From IMG/VR virus record IMGVR_UViG_3300045284_000214, positions 1,062 through 65,061 of that record: DNA of 64,000 nucleotides; one strand, given 5' to 3'. The number at the start of each line of letters is the position of its first letter. Position 1 is the stretch's first letter. Of the stretch, positions 47,571-53,717 are shown piece by piece. The position numbers and the translations under genes were made by a program. The notes beneath the pieces are model-generated. The model did not search any database. It saw nothing but the letters and a program-made list of their open reading frames with translations, and was not told the origin of the DNA. This DNA comes from a virus (taxonomy: Duplodnaviria > Caudoviricetes).

Positions 47571-47729
47571 ATGCCCAAAGCAAGAGGAGGGAATCGATGG
47601 AGACAGACAGGGAAGACAGGAAGTTTCTAATCAAGAAGGACGCCTAACATGGTAATAGATGCTTGACAACGGATTTTACCTATGCTCTCTGCACCATGTT
47701 CAGTTTTAACCCTTGATAGGAACATCACT

Positions 47730-48497
47730 ATGGCAAAGAAGAATGCAGAGACGATAGTCGAACAGGTTGCGAGCGACACTCCGGTCAAGCTGGGAGCTAT
47801 CCTGTCGAAGAAGGCTCAGTTCCAACGCTTCGGCATTTGGCTGGTTGGCGATACACCGCTGATTACGCATGCGTGGTCGGAGAAGGCCCGCAGAGAGATG
47901 CTCTCCAAGCAGGTCAAGGCGACCAAGGGTGGCAAGGAAGCCCGCGATCCCCATGCTGATTTCGTTTCGTCGCTCTACGAGATGGGGGACGGCACCTATG
48001 GCTTCCCGGCGACTGGCATCAAGAACTGCATCCTGAGTGCCGCCCACAAGGACAAGGGCATCCCCAGGACGGCTGTTATGTCGGCGCTGTGGATCGACGC
48101 CGATATGGTCCGGACACGCCCAGCGCTAGCTGGAGCGGTCTGTGACATGCCTTTGGTGCGGATCACGGGCAGCAAGCCGGAAATGCGGGAGGACATGGTC
48201 AAGATCGGCTCTGGCTTGAACAAAGTTGCCAATCTGGCTTACCGGGCTCAATTCACGGTTTGGGCGATGCGAATCACTGGCCGGTTTAATTCATCGATTA
48301 TCACGCCGGAAGCGCTGGCTTTCCTGATCCAGGAAGCTGGTTTGGCTTCTGGGCTAGGGGAATGGCGGAACGAGCGCAAGGGTATGTTTGGCTCCTGCCA
48401 TTTGGCCGATCCAGAGGAAGAGGCCGCATGGGATGCCTATGAGTCTGGCAAAGGCCAGCTCCCGGTTCCCGAGAATTATCGCATGGCAGCGGAGTAA
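47730..48497 (+). CDS. stand-alone RAMP/Cas7-like protein
   Basis: ATG 47730 after AGGA. RAMP-like order of motifs: beta1 'IWLVGDTPLITH', 'YGFPATGIKNCILSAA' (cf. xPGSSLKGxLR), 'YRAQF..W.MRI', C-terminal Gly loop 'AGLASGLGEWR..RKGMFG'. Confidence 0.75.
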   Translation: MAKKNAETIVEQVASDTPVKLGAILSKKAQFQRFGIWLVGDTPLITHAWSEKARREMLSKQVKATKGGKEARDPHADFVSSLYEMGDGTYGFPATGIKNCILSAAHKDKGIPRTAVMSALWIDADMVRTRPALAGAVCDMPLVRITGSKPEMREDMVKIGSGLNKVANLAYRAQFTVWAMRITGRFNSSIITPEALAFLIQEAGLASGLGEWRNERKGMFGSCHLADPEEEAAWDAYESGKGQLPVPENYRMAAE

Positions 48498-48502
48498 TAA
48501 TC

Positions 48503-49006
48503 ATGGTCAAATACATCTTCAGGGATGGCCCACTTACCATCCCGAATGCCAAGAAAGCCAGTGCTCAGAAGATCGGAACTGCGCTGGCTCAGATTGCGGA
48601 ACAACAGAAAGGGAGGCTAACGCCTCCAGCCGTTGTTGAAGCCGCCCGCAGCAATCGGCATCCCCTGCATCAATACTTTGAATGGGACAACGATGTAGCA
48701 GCTGAAGCCTATAGGCTGGATCAGGCCCGGACACTGATTCGGTCGGTCGCAGTTGTTGATGACAACGAGGACTCCAAACCCGCCTACCTGTCGATTTCCG
48801 ACAAGGCAGGAACCAGCTATCGGGCCGTCGAGGAAGTGCTTGACAGTGCTGAATTGCAAAGCGCTGTTCTGGCTGCGGCAGAGCGCGATCTAATTGCGTT
48901 CGAGAAGCGATACCGCCAGCTTCAGGACATCTGTGAAATCATTAGCAGCGCTAGGAGCAAGATTGCTGCTCGTCGCAACAAACATGAAAGCAGACTCGCA
49001 AGTTGA
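48503..49006 (+). CDS. partner protein of the RAMP-like gene
   Basis: GGAG RBS, starting 5 nt after the RAMP-like stop; 'G.LTP..VVEAAR....PLH.YFEWDN..AAE.YRL.QAR.LIRS' motif. Confidence 0.75.
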   Translation: MVKYIFRDGPLTIPNAKKASAQKIGTALAQIAEQQKGRLTPPAVVEAARSNRHPLHQYFEWDNDVAAEAYRLDQARTLIRSVAVVDDNEDSKPAYLSISDKAGTSYRAVEEVLDSAELQSAVLAAAERDLIAFEKRYRQLQDICEIISSARSKIAARRNKHESRLAS

Positions 49007-49017
49007 GCCTGTGAGAG

Positions 49018-49689
49018 CCAGGGACAAGAGGAGCTAGTCAGAGACAGTCGATGCGCAGAGCGTTCGTGTAAGTTAAGGCAGGCTTGGAGTGGCAGTTCCG
49101 AGAGATGCAGGCCAAGGCCTGGAACGGCAAGTTAAGGCAGGCGTGGTGAAGATTGGAACTGAGGTCGGAGCAGGCAAGGAGCAGCAAGTCCTGTACAGTC
49201 ACGGACAGGCAATGCAAGGCCGGATAGGACAGGCTTGTATAATCACGGCCCGTAATGTTCGGGGGTTGTCTGGATTGGTATGGCAGGCAGGGCTGGTCCC
49301 GTAAGTGATCGGTTGTGTGCGTTATCGCGTGGCAAAGCCGCGTTGGTCAAGGCAGGAGGAGAGTGGCATGGACCGTAATGGTTGGTTTTGGCAGGGCGCG
49401 TTGCGTCCTGTAGCGGTTCTGTAAGGCAGGATGTGTGTGGAAGTGCTGAGGCGTGGAAGTTCATATCTGTGCCCATTAAGGCAGGAGCGGTGTGGATAGT
49501 CGCGGCCCGTTCGGGTCTGGCAATGCCCAGTTAGGCAAGTCAGGAATGGAGTGGCAGAGATTGTCTGAGACGGTTTCTGAACTGTAAAGAGAAGAGTGGC
49601 TTGGTGAGGCTGGCTTGGCGTTGTTGAGCGCGGTTCTTCTGGTTTCGGCCCCGTCATGTGGGAAACGGCCCGGCGCTGCTTTGCTGGCA
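49018..49689 (+). repeat. non-coding array of 5-nt units (GG-biased triplet + variable NN) segmented by a 4-nt GGCA linker; candidate guide-RNA array
   Basis: Example from 49077: ggca|ggctt ggagt ggcag ttccg agaga tgcag gccaa ggcct ggaac ggcaa gttaa|ggca. Linker spacings are mostly 5n+4. Confidence 0.85.
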
Positions 49690-49697
49690 AACAAAAA

Positions 49698-49730
49698 TAG
49701 TGGCGGGAGAAATCCCGCTGCTAACTTTTC
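49698..49730 (+). terminator. intrinsic terminator closing the array
   Basis: tagtggcggga-gaaa-tcccgctgcta stem with GNRA loop, followed by acttttc. Confidence 0.75.
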
Positions 49731-49746
49731 TGTTGGGGAGGGTTCA

Positions 49747-51207
49747 TTGAGAGAACTGAGGCAAGATCAGATCGAGTTATTGGTCGAGATAGAGGAGGCT
49801 ATCGAGTCTGGGTTGCGGCGGTTAATGATCCAGGCTCCATGCGGGTTTGGGAAAACACTGGTAGCTTCGACATTGCTCAAGAAATATTGCGATGAAGGCA
49901 AGCGGGTCATGTTTGTGGTCCCGGCTATCAGCTTAATCAGCCAGACAATTGAAGTATTCAACAGCGAGGGATTAGAAGATATTGGCGTAATGCAAGCTTA
50001 TCACATGATGACTAACTGGGACATGCCAATACAAATTTGTAGTATTCAAACACTTTCAAGAAGAAATCTTCCAAAGTCCGATATCGTTATTATAGATGAA
50101 GCTCATATTTGGTTTAAATTCTTCGAAAAATGGATGCTGGACCCTGAATGGAAAGATATTCCATTTGTTGGACTTTCGGCAACGCCATGGGCGAAAGGTT
50201 TGGGCGCTTGGTACCAAAAACTGATCATAGGCAGCACCATTGGCGAAGCTATAGACCAGGGCATTTTGTCTCGTTTCAAAGTATTCGCGCCCGCCCATCC
50301 AGATTTAACAAAGGTTAGGACTCTCGCTGGCGATTTTCATGAAGGCGACCTCGAAAAGGTAATGAACCAAAAACGCCTTGTCGCGGATATTGTTAGCACA
50401 TGGCTTTTACGAGCTAAAGACTTGCCAACACTTTGTTTTTGCGTGAACCGCGCTCACGCGAAACAGGTTCAAGAGCAATTTATTGCCGCTGGGATAAATG
50501 CTGGCTACCAAGATTCCTTTACTAGGGATGACGAGCGAACAGCCATCAAGATCAAGTTCCACAACGGCGAAATGCCTGTCGTTTGCTCGGTAAATACAAT
50601 GATTTTGGGCATCGACTGGAAAATCAAGTGTTTGATTTGGGCGTGCCCGACAAAATCCGAGATGAAGTACGTTCAGGGCACTGGTCGAGGGTTGAGAACA
50701 GATGAAGGCAAGGACGAGTGCCTTATCCTCGATCATTCGGACAACACATTGCGCCTCGGATTCGTGGATTCCATCCATCACGCAGAATTGAACACGGGAA
50801 AAAAACCTTTAGCTGCCTCGGTCAGTCCGATCCGCCTTCCCAAGGAATGCCCGCAATGTACTTTCCTGAAACCGCCCAAGACGCTGGAGTGCCCGAACTG
50901 CGGCTTTGCCACCAAGCCGGTGGTCGATGTGGTGGTCGAGAAGGGCGAACTAGTTGAGTTTACCAAGAGGGGAAAGCCAAAGGATTTGTTCGAGAAACCA
51001 GATACTTACGCCGGTCTTCTGTGGTACGGACAGCAGAAGAATTACAAGGCTGGCTGGGCATTCCATAAATATTTTGAGCTTTTTCAAGAATATCCTCAAG
51101 GACTTGGCGTGGTGCCGAAGCCACCAAGCACGGAATTGGCAAAATGGATCAAATCACGAACCATAGCTTGGGCACACTCCAAATACCGGACTCCGCTTCG
51201 CCCATAA
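49747..51207 (+). CDS. SF2 DEAH helicase (RadD/YejH-like) with zinc finger
   Basis: TTG 49747 after GGGGAGG; LR..Q, APCGFGKT, DEAH, LSATP, QGTGRGLR, CPQC..CPNC. Confidence 0.92.
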   Translation: MRELRQDQIELLVEIEEAIESGLRRLMIQAPCGFGKTLVASTLLKKYCDEGKRVMFVVPAISLISQTIEVFNSEGLEDIGVMQAYHMMTNWDMPIQICSIQTLSRRNLPKSDIVIIDEAHIWFKFFEKWMLDPEWKDIPFVGLSATPWAKGLGAWYQKLIIGSTIGEAIDQGILSRFKVFAPAHPDLTKVRTLAGDFHEGDLEKVMNQKRLVADIVSTWLLRAKDLPTLCFCVNRAHAKQVQEQFIAAGINAGYQDSFTRDDERTAIKIKFHNGEMPVVCSVNTMILGIDWKIKCLIWACPTKSEMKYVQGTGRGLRTDEGKDECLILDHSDNTLRLGFVDSIHHAELNTGKKPLAASVSPIRLPKECPQCTFLKPPKTLECPNCGFATKPVVDVVVEKGELVEFTKRGKPKDLFEKPDTYAGLLWYGQQKNYKAGWAFHKYFELFQEYPQGLGVVPKPPSTELAKWIKSRTIAWAHSKYRTPLRP

Positions 51208-52007
51208 GCGACCATCCCTGCCCCCATTGCGGACCCGACTGTCGGTCCACATTCAATCGCAGGCGTAAGACCTTGCGAATATGGAACAATGATGGTTTCA
51301 TCAGCTGGAGATGTGCCCGCTGCGATACCACGGGATGGAAGAAGGGTAACAAGACGGACCATACCGCGCCCAGTCGGCAGCAGCCACAGCAGCCTCCCCA
51401 GAGCCGTACAGGAGCCGCCCGTGCGCTTTGGGCTGCGTCCTTGCCTCTGAAGGGCAGCCTCGCGGAAACCTACCTGCGGAGCCGCCAGTGCTTCCTGGAT
51501 ACCCCCAACCTTCGATTTCTCGAAGGCGGCAAGCATCCTCCAGCCATGATCGGGCGCTTTAGCTCCGGCGCGGTACATCTTACTCGTTTAAACGCAGACG
51601 GAACCGGGAAGGCAGGCACGGAGAACGATAAGCTGATGTTCGGGCGGGTTGCGAGTTCTCCACTAGTCATCGGCCACGCAGGGCCAGACACGCCGCTGAT
51701 CATCTGCGAGGGAATCGAGGATGGATTGTCGATGGTGTTGGCTACCGGCTTCTTGGTCTGGGTGGCTGGTTCGGCCTCGATGATGCCGAAGCTAATTCCG
51801 GCGTCCACGACACATCGAACGGTGTACTTTGCGCTCGATCTCGACAAGGCAGGCTTCCGCGCCTATCGCAGGGCACTGGAGCTGCGGACGGATATTCATT
51901 CCGTGAGATTTCCGAAACAACTTGACGCCAACGCCATCATTCGACAACCTGAGGGCACCAAACGCTTGAGAGAATTAGTGCTTCGCCGCCCCACCTTTCA
52001 CAGGTGA
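51144..52007 (+). CDS. zinc-finger TOPRIM primase-like protein
   Basis: CPHC...CARC, AETYLRSR, VHLTRL, CEGIEDGLS, ALDLDKAG. Confidence 0.85.
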   Translation: MDQITNHSLGTLQIPDSASPISDHPCPHCGPDCRSTFNRRRKTLRIWNNDGFISWRCARCDTTGWKKGNKTDHTAPSRQQPQQPPQSRTGAARALWAASLPLKGSLAETYLRSRQCFLDTPNLRFLEGGKHPPAMIGRFSSGAVHLTRLNADGTGKAGTENDKLMFGRVASSPLVIGHAGPDTPLIICEGIEDGLSMVLATGFLVWVAGSASMMPKLIPASTTHRTVYFALDLDKAGFRAYRRALELRTDIHSVRFPKQLDANAIIRQPEGTKRLRELVLRRPTFHR

Positions 52008-52115: not shown

Positions 52116-53717
52116 ATGGGTGATGGAAGCGGCGGCGGAGATGGTGGCGGTGGCGGCTCGGACAGCAGTTCTGACAGCGCCAACGATACCGGTGGCTTTA
52201 CCGGTGTAGCTCCCGGCGATCCCAGCGCCGTAAGCGGCTTCAGTGTAGGCACAGGCTTTGGCGATAGCTCGCAGTCAGGATCTTCACTGAGCGGCGAAGG
52301 GTTCGGCCCGGATGCGGATGCTGCTGCCGCAGCCGCTGCGGTTACTGGTCTTGCCACCGGTCTTGGTAGCGTGAGCGATGCCAATATCGGGACAGGCATC
52401 GGGAGTCTTGGGTTTGGAACCTCCAGCCCAAGCACTCCAGCCCCCGGTGAAGGCGCTGGCTTTGGCGCACCCGGCAATCCGGGCATTGGGGCGCAGACAG
52501 ATGCAGGCTTCGGTATAGCTGGCATTGGCCCGACTGCTGCTGGGCAGGGCTTGGGCCCGGCTGACAGCACCACTAACGATACTGCCAACCTCGGGCAGTC
52601 CATTGGCGCGGCGCTTAGTCAAAACAGCGACCCCAGCACTTCGGTTAGTCCATCCCTTGCGGCTGCTCTTGCTTCATTAGGCCAGACGAGTGCACCTGCG
52701 GCAGCGGCTGCGCCCGGCGCCGCACCGCCAGGAATAGCGGGAATCACCGGCGTAGCCAGCCCTGATCCTACATCACAAGCTGCACAGCCGGATGCTGTTA
52801 GCGCGGTCACGGGAGTTGCGCCTCCGGGCCTGAGCAACAGTACGCCATCCTCTCCGTTTGGCACGATTGCAGCGCCACCTACCAGCATGGACGCAGAGCT
52901 TGGCATAGATGTCCCCGGCATCGATCAGGACATGGCGGTCAATGCGCCACCCCCTCCGGGCGTAACAATGGGCTTCCAAGGTTTCAGCCCCAGCCCTACC
53001 GGCGTAGTGGGAGTAACCTCGCCAACGTCGATTTCGGACCAAGCTTTGGCTAATACCGTCGCGACCAAAGGCGATGCTGAGGCGATGCAGGATGCAAAGG
53101 ATCAAGCTGAGGCTAACGCCATAGCTGGGAAACTAGGCTTGCTAGGCCCCAACGCAATCACCACTAACCAAGGCCCGGTATCGGCGCTTCCTGCTTCGGT
53201 TTCGTCACCGCCGTCCGCGCCCAGCGCTACACTGGGAATTGGGGCTGACGCCGGATTCGGAGCACCGGGACAGCCGTCCATTGGCACCAGTCCGCCAAGC
53301 CCAGCTGCCATTGCCGCTGGATATGGTGCATTAGCTGAGGGGATGTCCACTCCCGCCGCAACTCCGGCAACCTTGGGCATCGCGTCAGACGCCATAGGAG
53401 CACCCAACCAGCCAAGCCTAGCCGCACAACAGAGCATCAACGACGCTAATATTTCCCTTGCTGCGCAAAACAATCAGCCAAACATTGCTCCAGCCCCAGC
53501 GCTCTCGCAGATCGCAACTGCGCCCCCTGCGCCAGCCGTTACCTCACCTGCGCCTGCATTAGGTGTGCCTGCCGCTACCCCCGCCTTATCGCCTGTCGCA
53601 GCTCCTGTCGCAGAGCAATCCATTACCAATCCTGATGGTACGCTGAACTTTGCGGCTCTGATGGCGAACTATCCCGGACTGCGTCAGCAGCTTACCAACA
53701 TACTCCAAACATCATGA
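52116..53717 (+). CDS. low-complexity Gly/Ser/Ala/Pro-rich protein
   Basis: AGGAG RBS; 533 aa open frame, essentially disordered. Confidence 0.7.
   Translation: MGDGSGGGDGGGGGSDSSSDSANDTGGFTGVAPGDPSAVSGFSVGTGFGDSSQSGSSLSGEGFGPDADAAAAAAAVTGLATGLGSVSDANIGTGIGSLGFGTSSPSTPAPGEGAGFGAPGNPGIGAQTDAGFGIAGIGPTAAGQGLGPADSTTNDTANLGQSIGAALSQNSDPSTSVSPSLAAALASLGQTSAPAAAAAPGAAPPGIAGITGVASPDPTSQAAQPDAVSAVTGVAPPGLSNSTPSSPFGTIAAPPTSMDAELGIDVPGIDQDMAVNAPPPPGVTMGFQGFSPSPTGVVGVTSPTSISDQALANTVATKGDAEAMQDAKDQAEANAIAGKLGLLGPNAITTNQGPVSALPASVSSPPSAPSATLGIGADAGFGAPGQPSIGTSPPSPAAIAAGYGALAEGMSTPAATPATLGIASDAIGAPNQPSLAAQQSINDANISLAAQNNQPNIAPAPALSQIATAPPAPAVTSPAPALGVPAATPALSPVAAPVAEQSITNPDGTLNFAALMANYPGLRQQLTNILQTS

What the first reader, a model, noticed from the sequence alone, without database searches (positions are those of the whole stretch)
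49018..49689. Grammar of the array: about 11 segments of 10-15 pentamers separated by a 4-nt GGCA linker (spacing 5n+4)
Seen: linker starts at 49018 (ccag, degenerate), 49077, 49136, 49169 (agca), 49228 (gaca), 49282, 49351, 49425, 49480, 49539 (gtca), 49608 (ggct) and 49686. Spacings are 59, 59, 33, 59, 54, 69, 74, 55, 59, 69, 78. Eight of eleven are exactly 5n+4 and the others are off by one. The best junctions read (T)AA-GGCA-GG(C/A). Within segments roughly half the pentamers begin GG; nearly all others keep G at position 1 or 2 (GT-, TG-, AG-). Position 3 is almost never G, and positions 4-5 vary freely. Example at 49484: ggagc ggtgt ggata gtcgc ggccc gttcg ggtct ggcaa tgccc agtta ggcaa. 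Segments differ in their dinucleotide strings, so this is not a simple satellite. Inference: the linkers are processing sites and the information lies in the NN string, e.g. 49355: gg gt at cc at tg tt ag gc gc ct gc tc aa.
Basis: partly seen in the sequence, partly recalled or inferred. Interest (0 to 1): 0.9.

Follow-up and report, generated by a model that had tools for sequence, protein, structure and literature searches.

The report
Phage VIPR guide-RNA array (staggered form)
The five-base-periodic stretch is the guide-RNA array of a VIPR system, a phage-borne CRISPR-like DNA silencer first described in 2026 preprints, so it is real and its code can be read, but it is a new example of a known kind.

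Summary
Window 49022-49690 is a strand-specific array of GGHNN pentamers (z = 14.6 against dinucleotide shuffles, unique in the window). Its register slips by -1 about every 59 nt at (T)AAGGCAGG.

It is the vrRNA array of a VIPR system (bioRxiv 10.64898/2026.04.26.720920 and .720927).
- The gene at 47730-48497 is a Vipr protein. Its family profile hits PDB 36pp, the SUSP1 Vipr, at E = 4.6e-14. The model has a Cas7/Csm3-like fold and keeps the guanine-binding residues.
- The gene at 48503-49006 is the conserved accessory gene.
- 46 of 48 related viral loci carry the same kind of array.
- The 5n+4 spacing matches the preprint's "staggered arrays", where neighbouring guides overlap by 1 nt.

Read as NN plus one skipped base, guide 49286-49355 spells the antisense of QRFTIAHELGHL, the active-site motif of ImmA/IrrE (M78) peptidase genes. 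It has perfect 24/24 matches in two viral contigs. It also has 24 near-matches in 401 Rhizobiales-order genomes, against 0 for a reversed control. Six other guides gave no convincing target. Processing at the junctions could not be tested because no RNA data exist.

This scan has reported VIPR arrays on other DNA before, including ImmA-directed guides.

The parts
47730..48497 (+). vipr gene (255 aa from the ATG at 47730; the ORF can also start at 47682): the RAMP/Cas7-like protein that binds one pentamer per subunit
   Evidence: The profile of 82 homologues hits PDB 36pp_D 'SUSP1 Vipr protein' at E = 4.6e-14. The same profile aligns SUSP1 Vipr residues 4-190 at E = 4.5e-19. The AF2 model has pLDDT 92.9 and its best Foldseek hits are Csm3/Cas7 chains at E = 3e-5. 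The SUSP1 residues H17, R138, D177, W178, R179, K33, R39 and K82 align to H47, R172, E211, W212, R213, K63, K69 and K107.
48503..49006 (+). vap-type accessory gene (167 aa, phrog_15946)
   Evidence: A homologue lies beside vipr in 47 of 48 viral loci. The AF2 model has pLDDT 93.3. Foldseek gave only weak winged-helix-like hits, E >= 0.08. The profile of this family does not hit SUSP1 vap1.
49022..49690 (+). staggered vrRNA array: 11 guide segments starting at 49022, 49081, 49140, 49173, 49232, 49286, 49355, 49429, 49484, 49543 and 49612. The segments at 49140 and 49429 carry internal indels. The last segment runs into the terminator region and may not be a guide.
49286..49355 (+). guide g5 (14 units). 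The NN of units 1-12, read with a 1-nt skip, are the antisense of codons for QRFTIAHELGHL of Peptidase_M78 (ImmA/IrrE) genes.
49698..49733 (+). terminator-like hairpin (11 pairs) with a T-rich tail, closing the array
   Evidence: the 66-nt stretch 49680-49745 that contains it folds at -24.4 kcal/mol, z = -3.5

Best explanation
This is a VIPR (Viral Interference Programmable Repeat) locus of a complete 65-kb soil phage. It consists of vipr (47730-48497), an accessory vap-type gene (48503-49006) and a staggered array of about ten vrRNA guides (49022-49690), closed by a terminator.

Mechanism established in print for the SUSP1 system:
- Vipr subunits polymerise along the RNA, one per pentamer.
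- They bury the GGY bases and present the two variable bases.
- Those bases pair with double-stranded DNA while every third target base is skipped, which silences transcription of rival mobile elements.

Shown here:
- Homology of the protein to SUSP1 Vipr and conservation of its RNA-contact residues.
- The pentamer grammar, and its conservation beside vipr in distant relatives.
- One guide whose NN string, read with a 1-nt skip, matches the active-site codons of ImmA/IrrE-family M78 peptidase genes, a gene family this phage itself lacks.

Inferred:
- The array is co-transcribed with vipr and vap.
- It is cut, or phase-broken, at each (T)AAGGCAGG junction, where neighbouring guides share one G.
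- The M78-directed guide blocks the induction or defence switch of competitors.
For: - **Protein.** Searches show homology to SUSP1 Vipr and the conserved GG-binding residues. R172 and R213 are invariant in 82 of 82 homologues, and H47 is kept in 74 of 82. Searches show the RAMP fold.
- **Association.** 46 of 48 IMG/VR loci with a vipr homologue (31-82% identity) carry a period-5 G array on the same strand. The vap homologue is adjacent in 47 of 48. The helicase and primase next to the window's array recur in 0 of 48.
- **Grammar.** In 40 distinct arrays there are 464 slips of -1 against 98 of +1. 275 of 522 segment lengths are 5n+4, peaking at 44, 49, 54, 59, 64 and 69 nt, which is 9-14 units. 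This fits the published 9-16 units and 1-nt overlapping guides.
- **Code, viral contigs.** The 8-unit seed of g5 gave at least 117 exact hits, against 6-25 for five other 8-unit seeds. In the 80 loci held, 78 of 80 match 20-25 of 28 positions, and the antisense peptide has A 80/80, H 76/80, E 75/80 and H 73/80. Two loci match 24/24 over units 1-12. 7 of 7 target ORFs tested are PF06114.
- **Code, host-order genomes.** In 401 genomes of the order of the nearest prophage host there are 24 places in 23 genomes with at most 3 mismatches of 24. The pattern read backwards gives 0. 5 of 5 ORFs tested are PF06114.
- **No self-target.** The phage has no PF06114 gene and no match above shuffles.
- **Literature.** Results sections of both April 2026 preprints were read.
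Against: - The scaffold is looser than the published GGY. Only 51 of 123 units start with GG, and position 3 is A in 35 of 123, although the SUSP1 pocket is said to exclude purines.
- Only 1 of 7 guides tested has a convincing target.
  - g0, g6, g8 and g9 gave seed hits at chance level with no extension.
  - g1 gave no hit at all.
  - g4 matches 18/18 in IS1595 transposase genes, but a match of that length is expected about once by chance in that collection.
- The g5 loci were fetched by an exact seed, so extension within one conserved family is not independent evidence. Two of the 12 host-genome loci (one sequence) are not HEXXH genes.
- No RNA evidence exists for expression, ends or processing.
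- The accessory protein shows no detectable similarity to SUSP1 vap1.
Confidence: 0.93

Rival explanations
1. It is the phage origin of replication. On this reading the repeated (T)AAGGCAGG motifs are iterons for an initiator, placed just upstream of the helicase and primase genes, and the G-rich strand promotes unwinding or R-loop priming.
For: The array lies directly upstream of a helicase (49750-51207) and a Toprim primase (51144-52007). GC skew peaks there, 0.19 at 48001-50000.
Against: The helicase and primase accompany the array in 0 of 48 related loci, whereas vipr and vap always do. The signal is strand-specific with a 5-nt, not helical, period. The variable positions carry a readable target code.
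Confidence: 0.02
2. It is a decaying or inactive VIPR array. The locus is a VIPR by descent, but the loose GG scaffold and the indels inside two segments mean that most guides no longer load or target.
For: Only 51 of 123 units begin with GG, against G 0.81 and 0.80 at positions 1 and 2 in relatives. The segments at 49140 and 49429 have internal frame slips. Six of 7 guides tested have no convincing target.
Against: The vipr and vap reading frames are intact and keep the functional residues. The guide with the perfect 24/24 target (g5) has only 5 of 14 GG units, so a loose scaffold goes with preserved information. The closest relative, L001, shows the same looseness. SUSP1's own guides contain GT-type units. 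Exact-seed searches miss targets that carry mismatches.
Confidence: 0.05

Closest known systems
VIPR systems, staggered-array form (bioRxiv 10.64898/2026.04.26.720920, main text and the legend of fig. S18)
   Same: A Vipr RAMP protein, an adjacent accessory gene, and tandem pentamers with a fixed GG(Y) part and a variable NN part. Guides have 9-15 units and neighbours overlap by 1 nt (5n+4 spacing). The locus is phage-borne, has no self-target, and its target is read with a 1-nt skip at codon wobble positions.
   Different: Positions 1 and 3 are looser here (G-or-K, K, not-G). The VIPR type (I-VII) and vap number could not be assigned, because the classification lives in supplements I could not open. 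Staggered arrays are not among the forms the text says were confirmed by RNA sequencing.
Type II VIPR of Escherichia phage SUSP1 (KT454805; PDB 36pp)
   Same: The Vipr proteins are homologous (profile E = 4.5e-19) and the GG-contact residues are conserved. Gene order is vipr then accessory gene, with guides downstream.
   Different: SUSP1 guides are separate RNAs of about 100 nt. Each has its own leader and a 3' tail of about 40 nt that forms a pseudoknot. Here the guides abut with no tail. SUSP1 vap1 is not detectably related to the accessory protein here. SUSP1 Vipr has 195 aa against 255 aa here.
Class 1 CRISPR-Cas backbone (Cas7/Csm3 filament on crRNA)
   Same: The RAMP fold (Foldseek top hits are Csm3 chains, E = 3e-5), one subunit per RNA repeat length, and periodic base flipping.
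   Different: The period is 5 nt with 3 bases buried, not 6 with 1 flipped. There are no CRISPR repeats, spacers or other cas genes. The guide pairs non-contiguously.

Membership tests
VIPR system | Vipr protein: a minimal RAMP homologous to characterised Vipr proteins | tested here: met
   The family profile hits PDB 36pp_D (SUSP1 Vipr) at E = 4.6e-14. It aligns the SUSP1 gene product over residues 4-190 at E = 4.5e-19. The single sequence alone reaches only E = 0.001. The AF2 model's nearest folds are Csm3/Cas7.
VIPR system | Residues that read G1, G2 and Y3 and hold the DNA (SUSP1 H17, R138, D177, W178, R179, K33, R39, K82) | tested here: met
   They align to H47, R172, E211, W212, R213, K63, K69 and K107. 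Among 82 homologues: R172 82/82, R213 82/82, H47 74/82, E or D at 211 82/82, W212 68/82. K107 is poorly conserved, K in 17/82.
VIPR system | vrRNA: tandem pentamers, GGY fixed and NN hypervariable, 9-16 units per guide | tested here: met
   Entropies by position are 1.39, 1.06, 1.72, 1.99 and 2.00 bits. Guides have 11-16 units, apart from one broken 7-unit segment. The scaffold is relaxed: GG in 51/123 units, G at position 1 or 2 in 118/123, A at position 3 in 35/123. The preprint's methods mention related looser repeat forms.
VIPR system | A vap accessory gene beside vipr | tested here: met
   A homologue of 48503-49006 lies next to vipr in 47 of 48 loci. Which of vap1-6 it is could not be told. 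There is no hit to SUSP1 vap1, and the supplements were closed.
VIPR system | NN string specifies a DNA target with one skipped base per unit | tested here: met
   Met for g5: 24/24 in two viral contigs, and 24 places against 0 control places in 401 genomes. Not found for g0, g1, g6, g8 and g9. g4 is only at chance level. g3, g7 and g10 were not searched in the large collections.
VIPR system | vrRNAs are expressed and co-purify with Vipr | not testable with these tools
   Only two DNA runs hold the stretch and none is on record as RNA.
VIPR staggered array | Adjacent guides overlap by 1 nt, so boundaries recur at 5n+4 | tested here: met
   8 of 11 spacings in the window. 275 of 522 segments in 40 related arrays, with 464 slips of -1 against 98 of +1.
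CRISPR-Cas (class 1) | Repeat-spacer array and further cas genes | tested here: not met
   Tandem Repeats Finder found only an 11-nt two-copy repeat. The neighbours are RusA, a methyltransferase, a helicase and a primase. The period is 5, not 6.
Type III toxin-antitoxin (ToxIN-like repeat RNA) | Near-identical tandem repeats followed by an endoribonuclease toxin gene | tested here: not met
   The segments differ in sequence and length. The downstream gene is an SF2 helicase.

The most novel reading that the evidence does not exclude
This clade's VIPR works with a relaxed scaffold in which only one G and a non-G third base are needed. It also uses a tail-less, staggered array whose conserved (T)AAGGCAGG junction is itself the maturation or filament-phasing signal, a mechanism not yet shown experimentally. 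In addition, it carries 'pan-family' guides aimed at the invariant HEXXH codons of ImmA/IrrE/CapP-type M78 peptidases. One guide could then silence the induction or defence switch of many unrelated prophages, islands or immune systems. A second, differently spelled HEXXH guide in related locus L006, and three earlier notes of this scan, suggest the target class recurs. No paper in the searched library holds both 'vrRNA' and 'ImmA' (supplements not searched).
Probability: 0.3. Interest if true: 0.55.

Novelty: new member of a known kind. Interest (0 to 1): 0.35.

Why it matters
VIPR is a newly described RNA-guided DNA-recognition system, proposed to predate CRISPR. Three points about this locus are of use.
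- It shows that the staggered, tail-less array form is widespread in soil phages.
- It shows that a much looser scaffold than GGY can coexist with a perfectly preserved guide.
- It gives a concrete natural target: the active-site codons of M78 (ImmA/IrrE-type) peptidase genes.

This fits the published picture of phages silencing rivals' lysis-lysogeny switches and extends it to a family-wide conserved motif. As a discovery of a kind of system, it is already in print.

Tried and rejected
- **Searches of the window that found nothing.** Tandem Repeats Finder missed the array, giving only an 11-nt two-copy row. Rfam gave 0 families and there are no tRNAs. blastn of the locus against the phage collection found no match. 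NCBIfam and Pfam do not know the vipr or vap proteins.
- **Early ideas dropped once the PDB hit appeared.**
  - TRAP-like or CsrA-like protein sponge.
  - Two-tetrad G-quadruplex tract.
  - Iteron origin.
  - Telomere-like repeat.
  - ToxI-like antitoxin.
- **Accessory protein.** The PDB profile search gave nothing below E = 0.2. Foldseek gave only weak winged-helix-like rows. The VIA-align wide search matched only the C-terminal helical hairpin, Z 8-9, which is uninformative.
- **Self-targeting.** With skip 0, 1 or 2 there was no match above shuffled guides in the phage's own genome or the first 51 loci. Skip 3 only finds the array itself.
- **Target seeds in IMG/VR.**
  - g1: 0 hits.
  - g8: 13 hits, best 18/20 in two related contigs, which is within chance.
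  - g6: 25 hits with no extension.
  - g0: 10 hits, best 19/20 over 10 units, which is within chance.
  - g9: 6 hits with no extension.
  - g4: 14 hits, of which 5 lie in IS1595-family transposase genes at 18/18. An 18-base match is expected about once by chance there, so I do not claim it.
- **RNA evidence.** No RNA holder was listed for the stretch. Read laying was not used because only DNA contigs were offered.
- **VIPR type.** The type could not be assigned because the supplements were closed.

Full report
**Observation.** The region between the stop codon at 49006 and the helicase gene is non-coding and G-rich: 276 G of 734 bases.
- G autocorrelation peaks at every multiple of 5 out to lag 30.
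- A period-5 statistic scores 0.38, against a shuffle mean of about 0 (sd 0.026, maximum 0.088 in 2000 dinucleotide shuffles), z = 14.6.
- The 14 best 300-nt windows of the 64-kb window all lie at 48851-49801.
- Global Fourier power at period 5 is weak because the phase steps back by one base about every 59 nt.
- A Viterbi phasing with slip states gives these base frequencies: position 1 G 0.66; position 2 G 0.71 and T 0.24; position 3 G 0.01; positions 4 and 5 are free. The -1 slips fall after GGCA.

**Identification.** The genes nearby are phage replication and recombination genes: RusA, a methyltransferase, an SF2 helicase and a Toprim primase. Two genes directly upstream of the array, 47730-48497 and 48503-49006, have no Pfam family and fall only in PHROG families of unknown function.
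- An earlier first-reader note on this stretch called the first gene RAMP-like, and I tested that.
- The protein family is very large: 1265 proteins in one search, and 2494 clusters at 50% identity in another.
- A profile of 82 members hits one solved structure, 36pp 'SUSP1 Vipr protein', at E = 4.6e-14.
- The AF2 model (pLDDT 92.9) finds Csm3/Cas7 chains first. That Foldseek library ends before 36pp was released.
- A literature search on the name led to three 2026 preprints. I read the Results, Discussion and three Methods sections of 10.64898/2026.04.26.720920, plus passages including the supplementary figure legends printed in its text. I read the Results of 10.64898/2026.04.26.720927. For 10.64898/2026.10.15.759431 I read the abstract, outline and one Methods section.
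- The preprints describe VIPR as follows.
  - The components are a Vipr RAMP protein, a vap accessory gene, and vrRNAs of 9-16 YNNGG repeats.
  - The NN bases pair with DNA while every third target base is skipped.
  - There are seven types.
  - One array form is 'staggered arrays', in which vrRNAs come from positions overlapping by 1 nt.

**Membership.**
- I fetched the SUSP1 locus. Its 195-aa gene aligns to my profile over residues 4-190 at E = 4.5e-19.
- The residues the cryo-EM preprint names for G1, G2, Y3 and DNA contacts map onto conserved residues of the window protein.
- SUSP1's guides are separate RNAs with tails. The window's guides abut, as in the staggered form.
- In 48 IMG/VR loci with a vipr homologue (31-82% identity), 46 carry a period-5 G array on the same strand. 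L022 and L024 do not. At a stricter threshold the count is 43.
- The second gene is adjacent in 47 of 48 loci. The helicase and primase are adjacent in none.
- Across 40 distinct arrays, the frequencies are G 0.81, G 0.80 and C 0.70 / T 0.16 at positions 1-3. There are 464 slips of -1 against 98 of +1. Segment lengths peak at 44, 49, 54, 59, 64 and 69 nt. The commonest slip context is GGCAGG.

**The record.** The window lies in a complete 65,061-bp virus record with direct terminal repeats. It comes from soil metagenomes. The nearest prophage copy among species genomes is 73% identical, in a Tianweitania genome.

**The code, tested here.**
- I cut the array into 11 segments. No guide matches the phage itself or the first 51 loci above shuffled guides in skip registers 0-2.
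- I then scanned IMG/VR with exact seeds of 8 or 9 units in the 1-nt-skip register. Six seeds gave 0 to 25 hits.
- In the 80 g5 loci held, the whole 14-unit guide matches 20-25 of 28 positions in 78 loci. The antisense translation reads xRQRFTIAHELGHx.
- 7 of 7 ORFs tested carry Peptidase_M78, PF06114.
- Two loci match 24/24 over units 1-12. The best of 10 order-shuffled guides reached 18-19 of 24 in the same 1.93 Mb. That set was enriched by the seed, so this comparison is not unbiased.
- An independent check: in 401 genomes of the order of the Tianweitania genome, 23 genomes hold 24 places with at most 3 mismatches of 24 (2 with one mismatch, 8 with two, 14 with three). The same pattern read backwards gives 0 places.
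- Of the 12 places fetched, 10 encode an RF(T/S)xAHELGH motif, and 2 (one sequence) do not. 5 of 5 target ORFs tested are PF06114. Their settings vary: beside a LexA/CI-like repressor, fused to an HTH domain, or beside a transposase.
- The last two units (AA, AG) do not match the targets and belong to the conserved junction.
- The phage has no PF06114 gene.
- A related array, L006, has a differently spelled HEXXH guide.

**What remains open.**
- No RNA data exist, so transcription, the ends of the RNAs and cleavage at the junction are inferred.
- A terminator-like hairpin closes the array at 49698-49723. No sigma-70-like site was found on the + strand before it, which suggests co-transcription with vipr and vap.
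- The accessory protein folds confidently but has no clear structural relative.
- The scaffold is looser than GGY.
- The VIPR type could not be assigned.

**Earlier notes of this scan.** 58 findings in at least 53 genomes mention VIPR pentamer arrays. Three describe ImmA-motif guides in other genomes, and one of them reads the target as capP-type defence genes. I reached the M78 target before reading these.

**Verdict.** The feature is real, correctly described and largely correctly interpreted. It belongs to a kind published in 2026.

Noticed in passing
L052 3583-3906 (Gordonia phage UmaThurman NC_031249.1 33362-33685): The annotated CDS gp40 'hypothetical protein' is a staggered vrRNA array with GGCAGG junctions (period-5 statistic 0.93). 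It lies between the vipr homologue gp39 and the vap homologue gp41, so it is probably misannotated as a protein gene.
   Followed up: partly
phages collection, 33 records: Vipr homologues, annotated as 'hypothetical protein', occur in 27 Mycobacterium phage records (Saal, Donkeykong, Mattes and others), 5 Gordonia phage records and one cyanophage record. These are isolated phages in which VIPR could be studied.
   Followed up: no
L006, array downstream of the vipr homologue (70% identity): A second guide spells, antisense and with a 1-nt skip, x[NK][FL]TVA[HQ][DE][FL]G[HQ]. This is another HEXXH/M78-like motif with different letters from the window's g5.
   Followed up: partly
window 49232-49286 (guide g4): Its 9 informative units match 18/18 the antisense of K-S-T-R-I-G-V-Y-K in the zinc-ribbon domain of IS1595-family transposase genes in 5 viral contigs (Pfam confirmed in 5 of 5). 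A match of this length is expected about once by chance, so it is only a candidate target.
   Followed up: partly
It shows no period-5 signal, so it holds no upstream vrRNA of the SUSP1 kind. Its role (promoter or regulatory region?) was not examined.
   Followed up: no
window 52116-53717: A 533-aa ORF after the primase has no Pfam, PHROG or NCBIfam match.
   Followed up: no
L053 28474-29061 (SUSP1 vipr): Residue 175 of the GenBank gene product is V, whereas the cryo-EM preprint's text names T175 in the Y3 pocket. The neighbours C173, D177, W178 and R179 agree.
   Followed up: no
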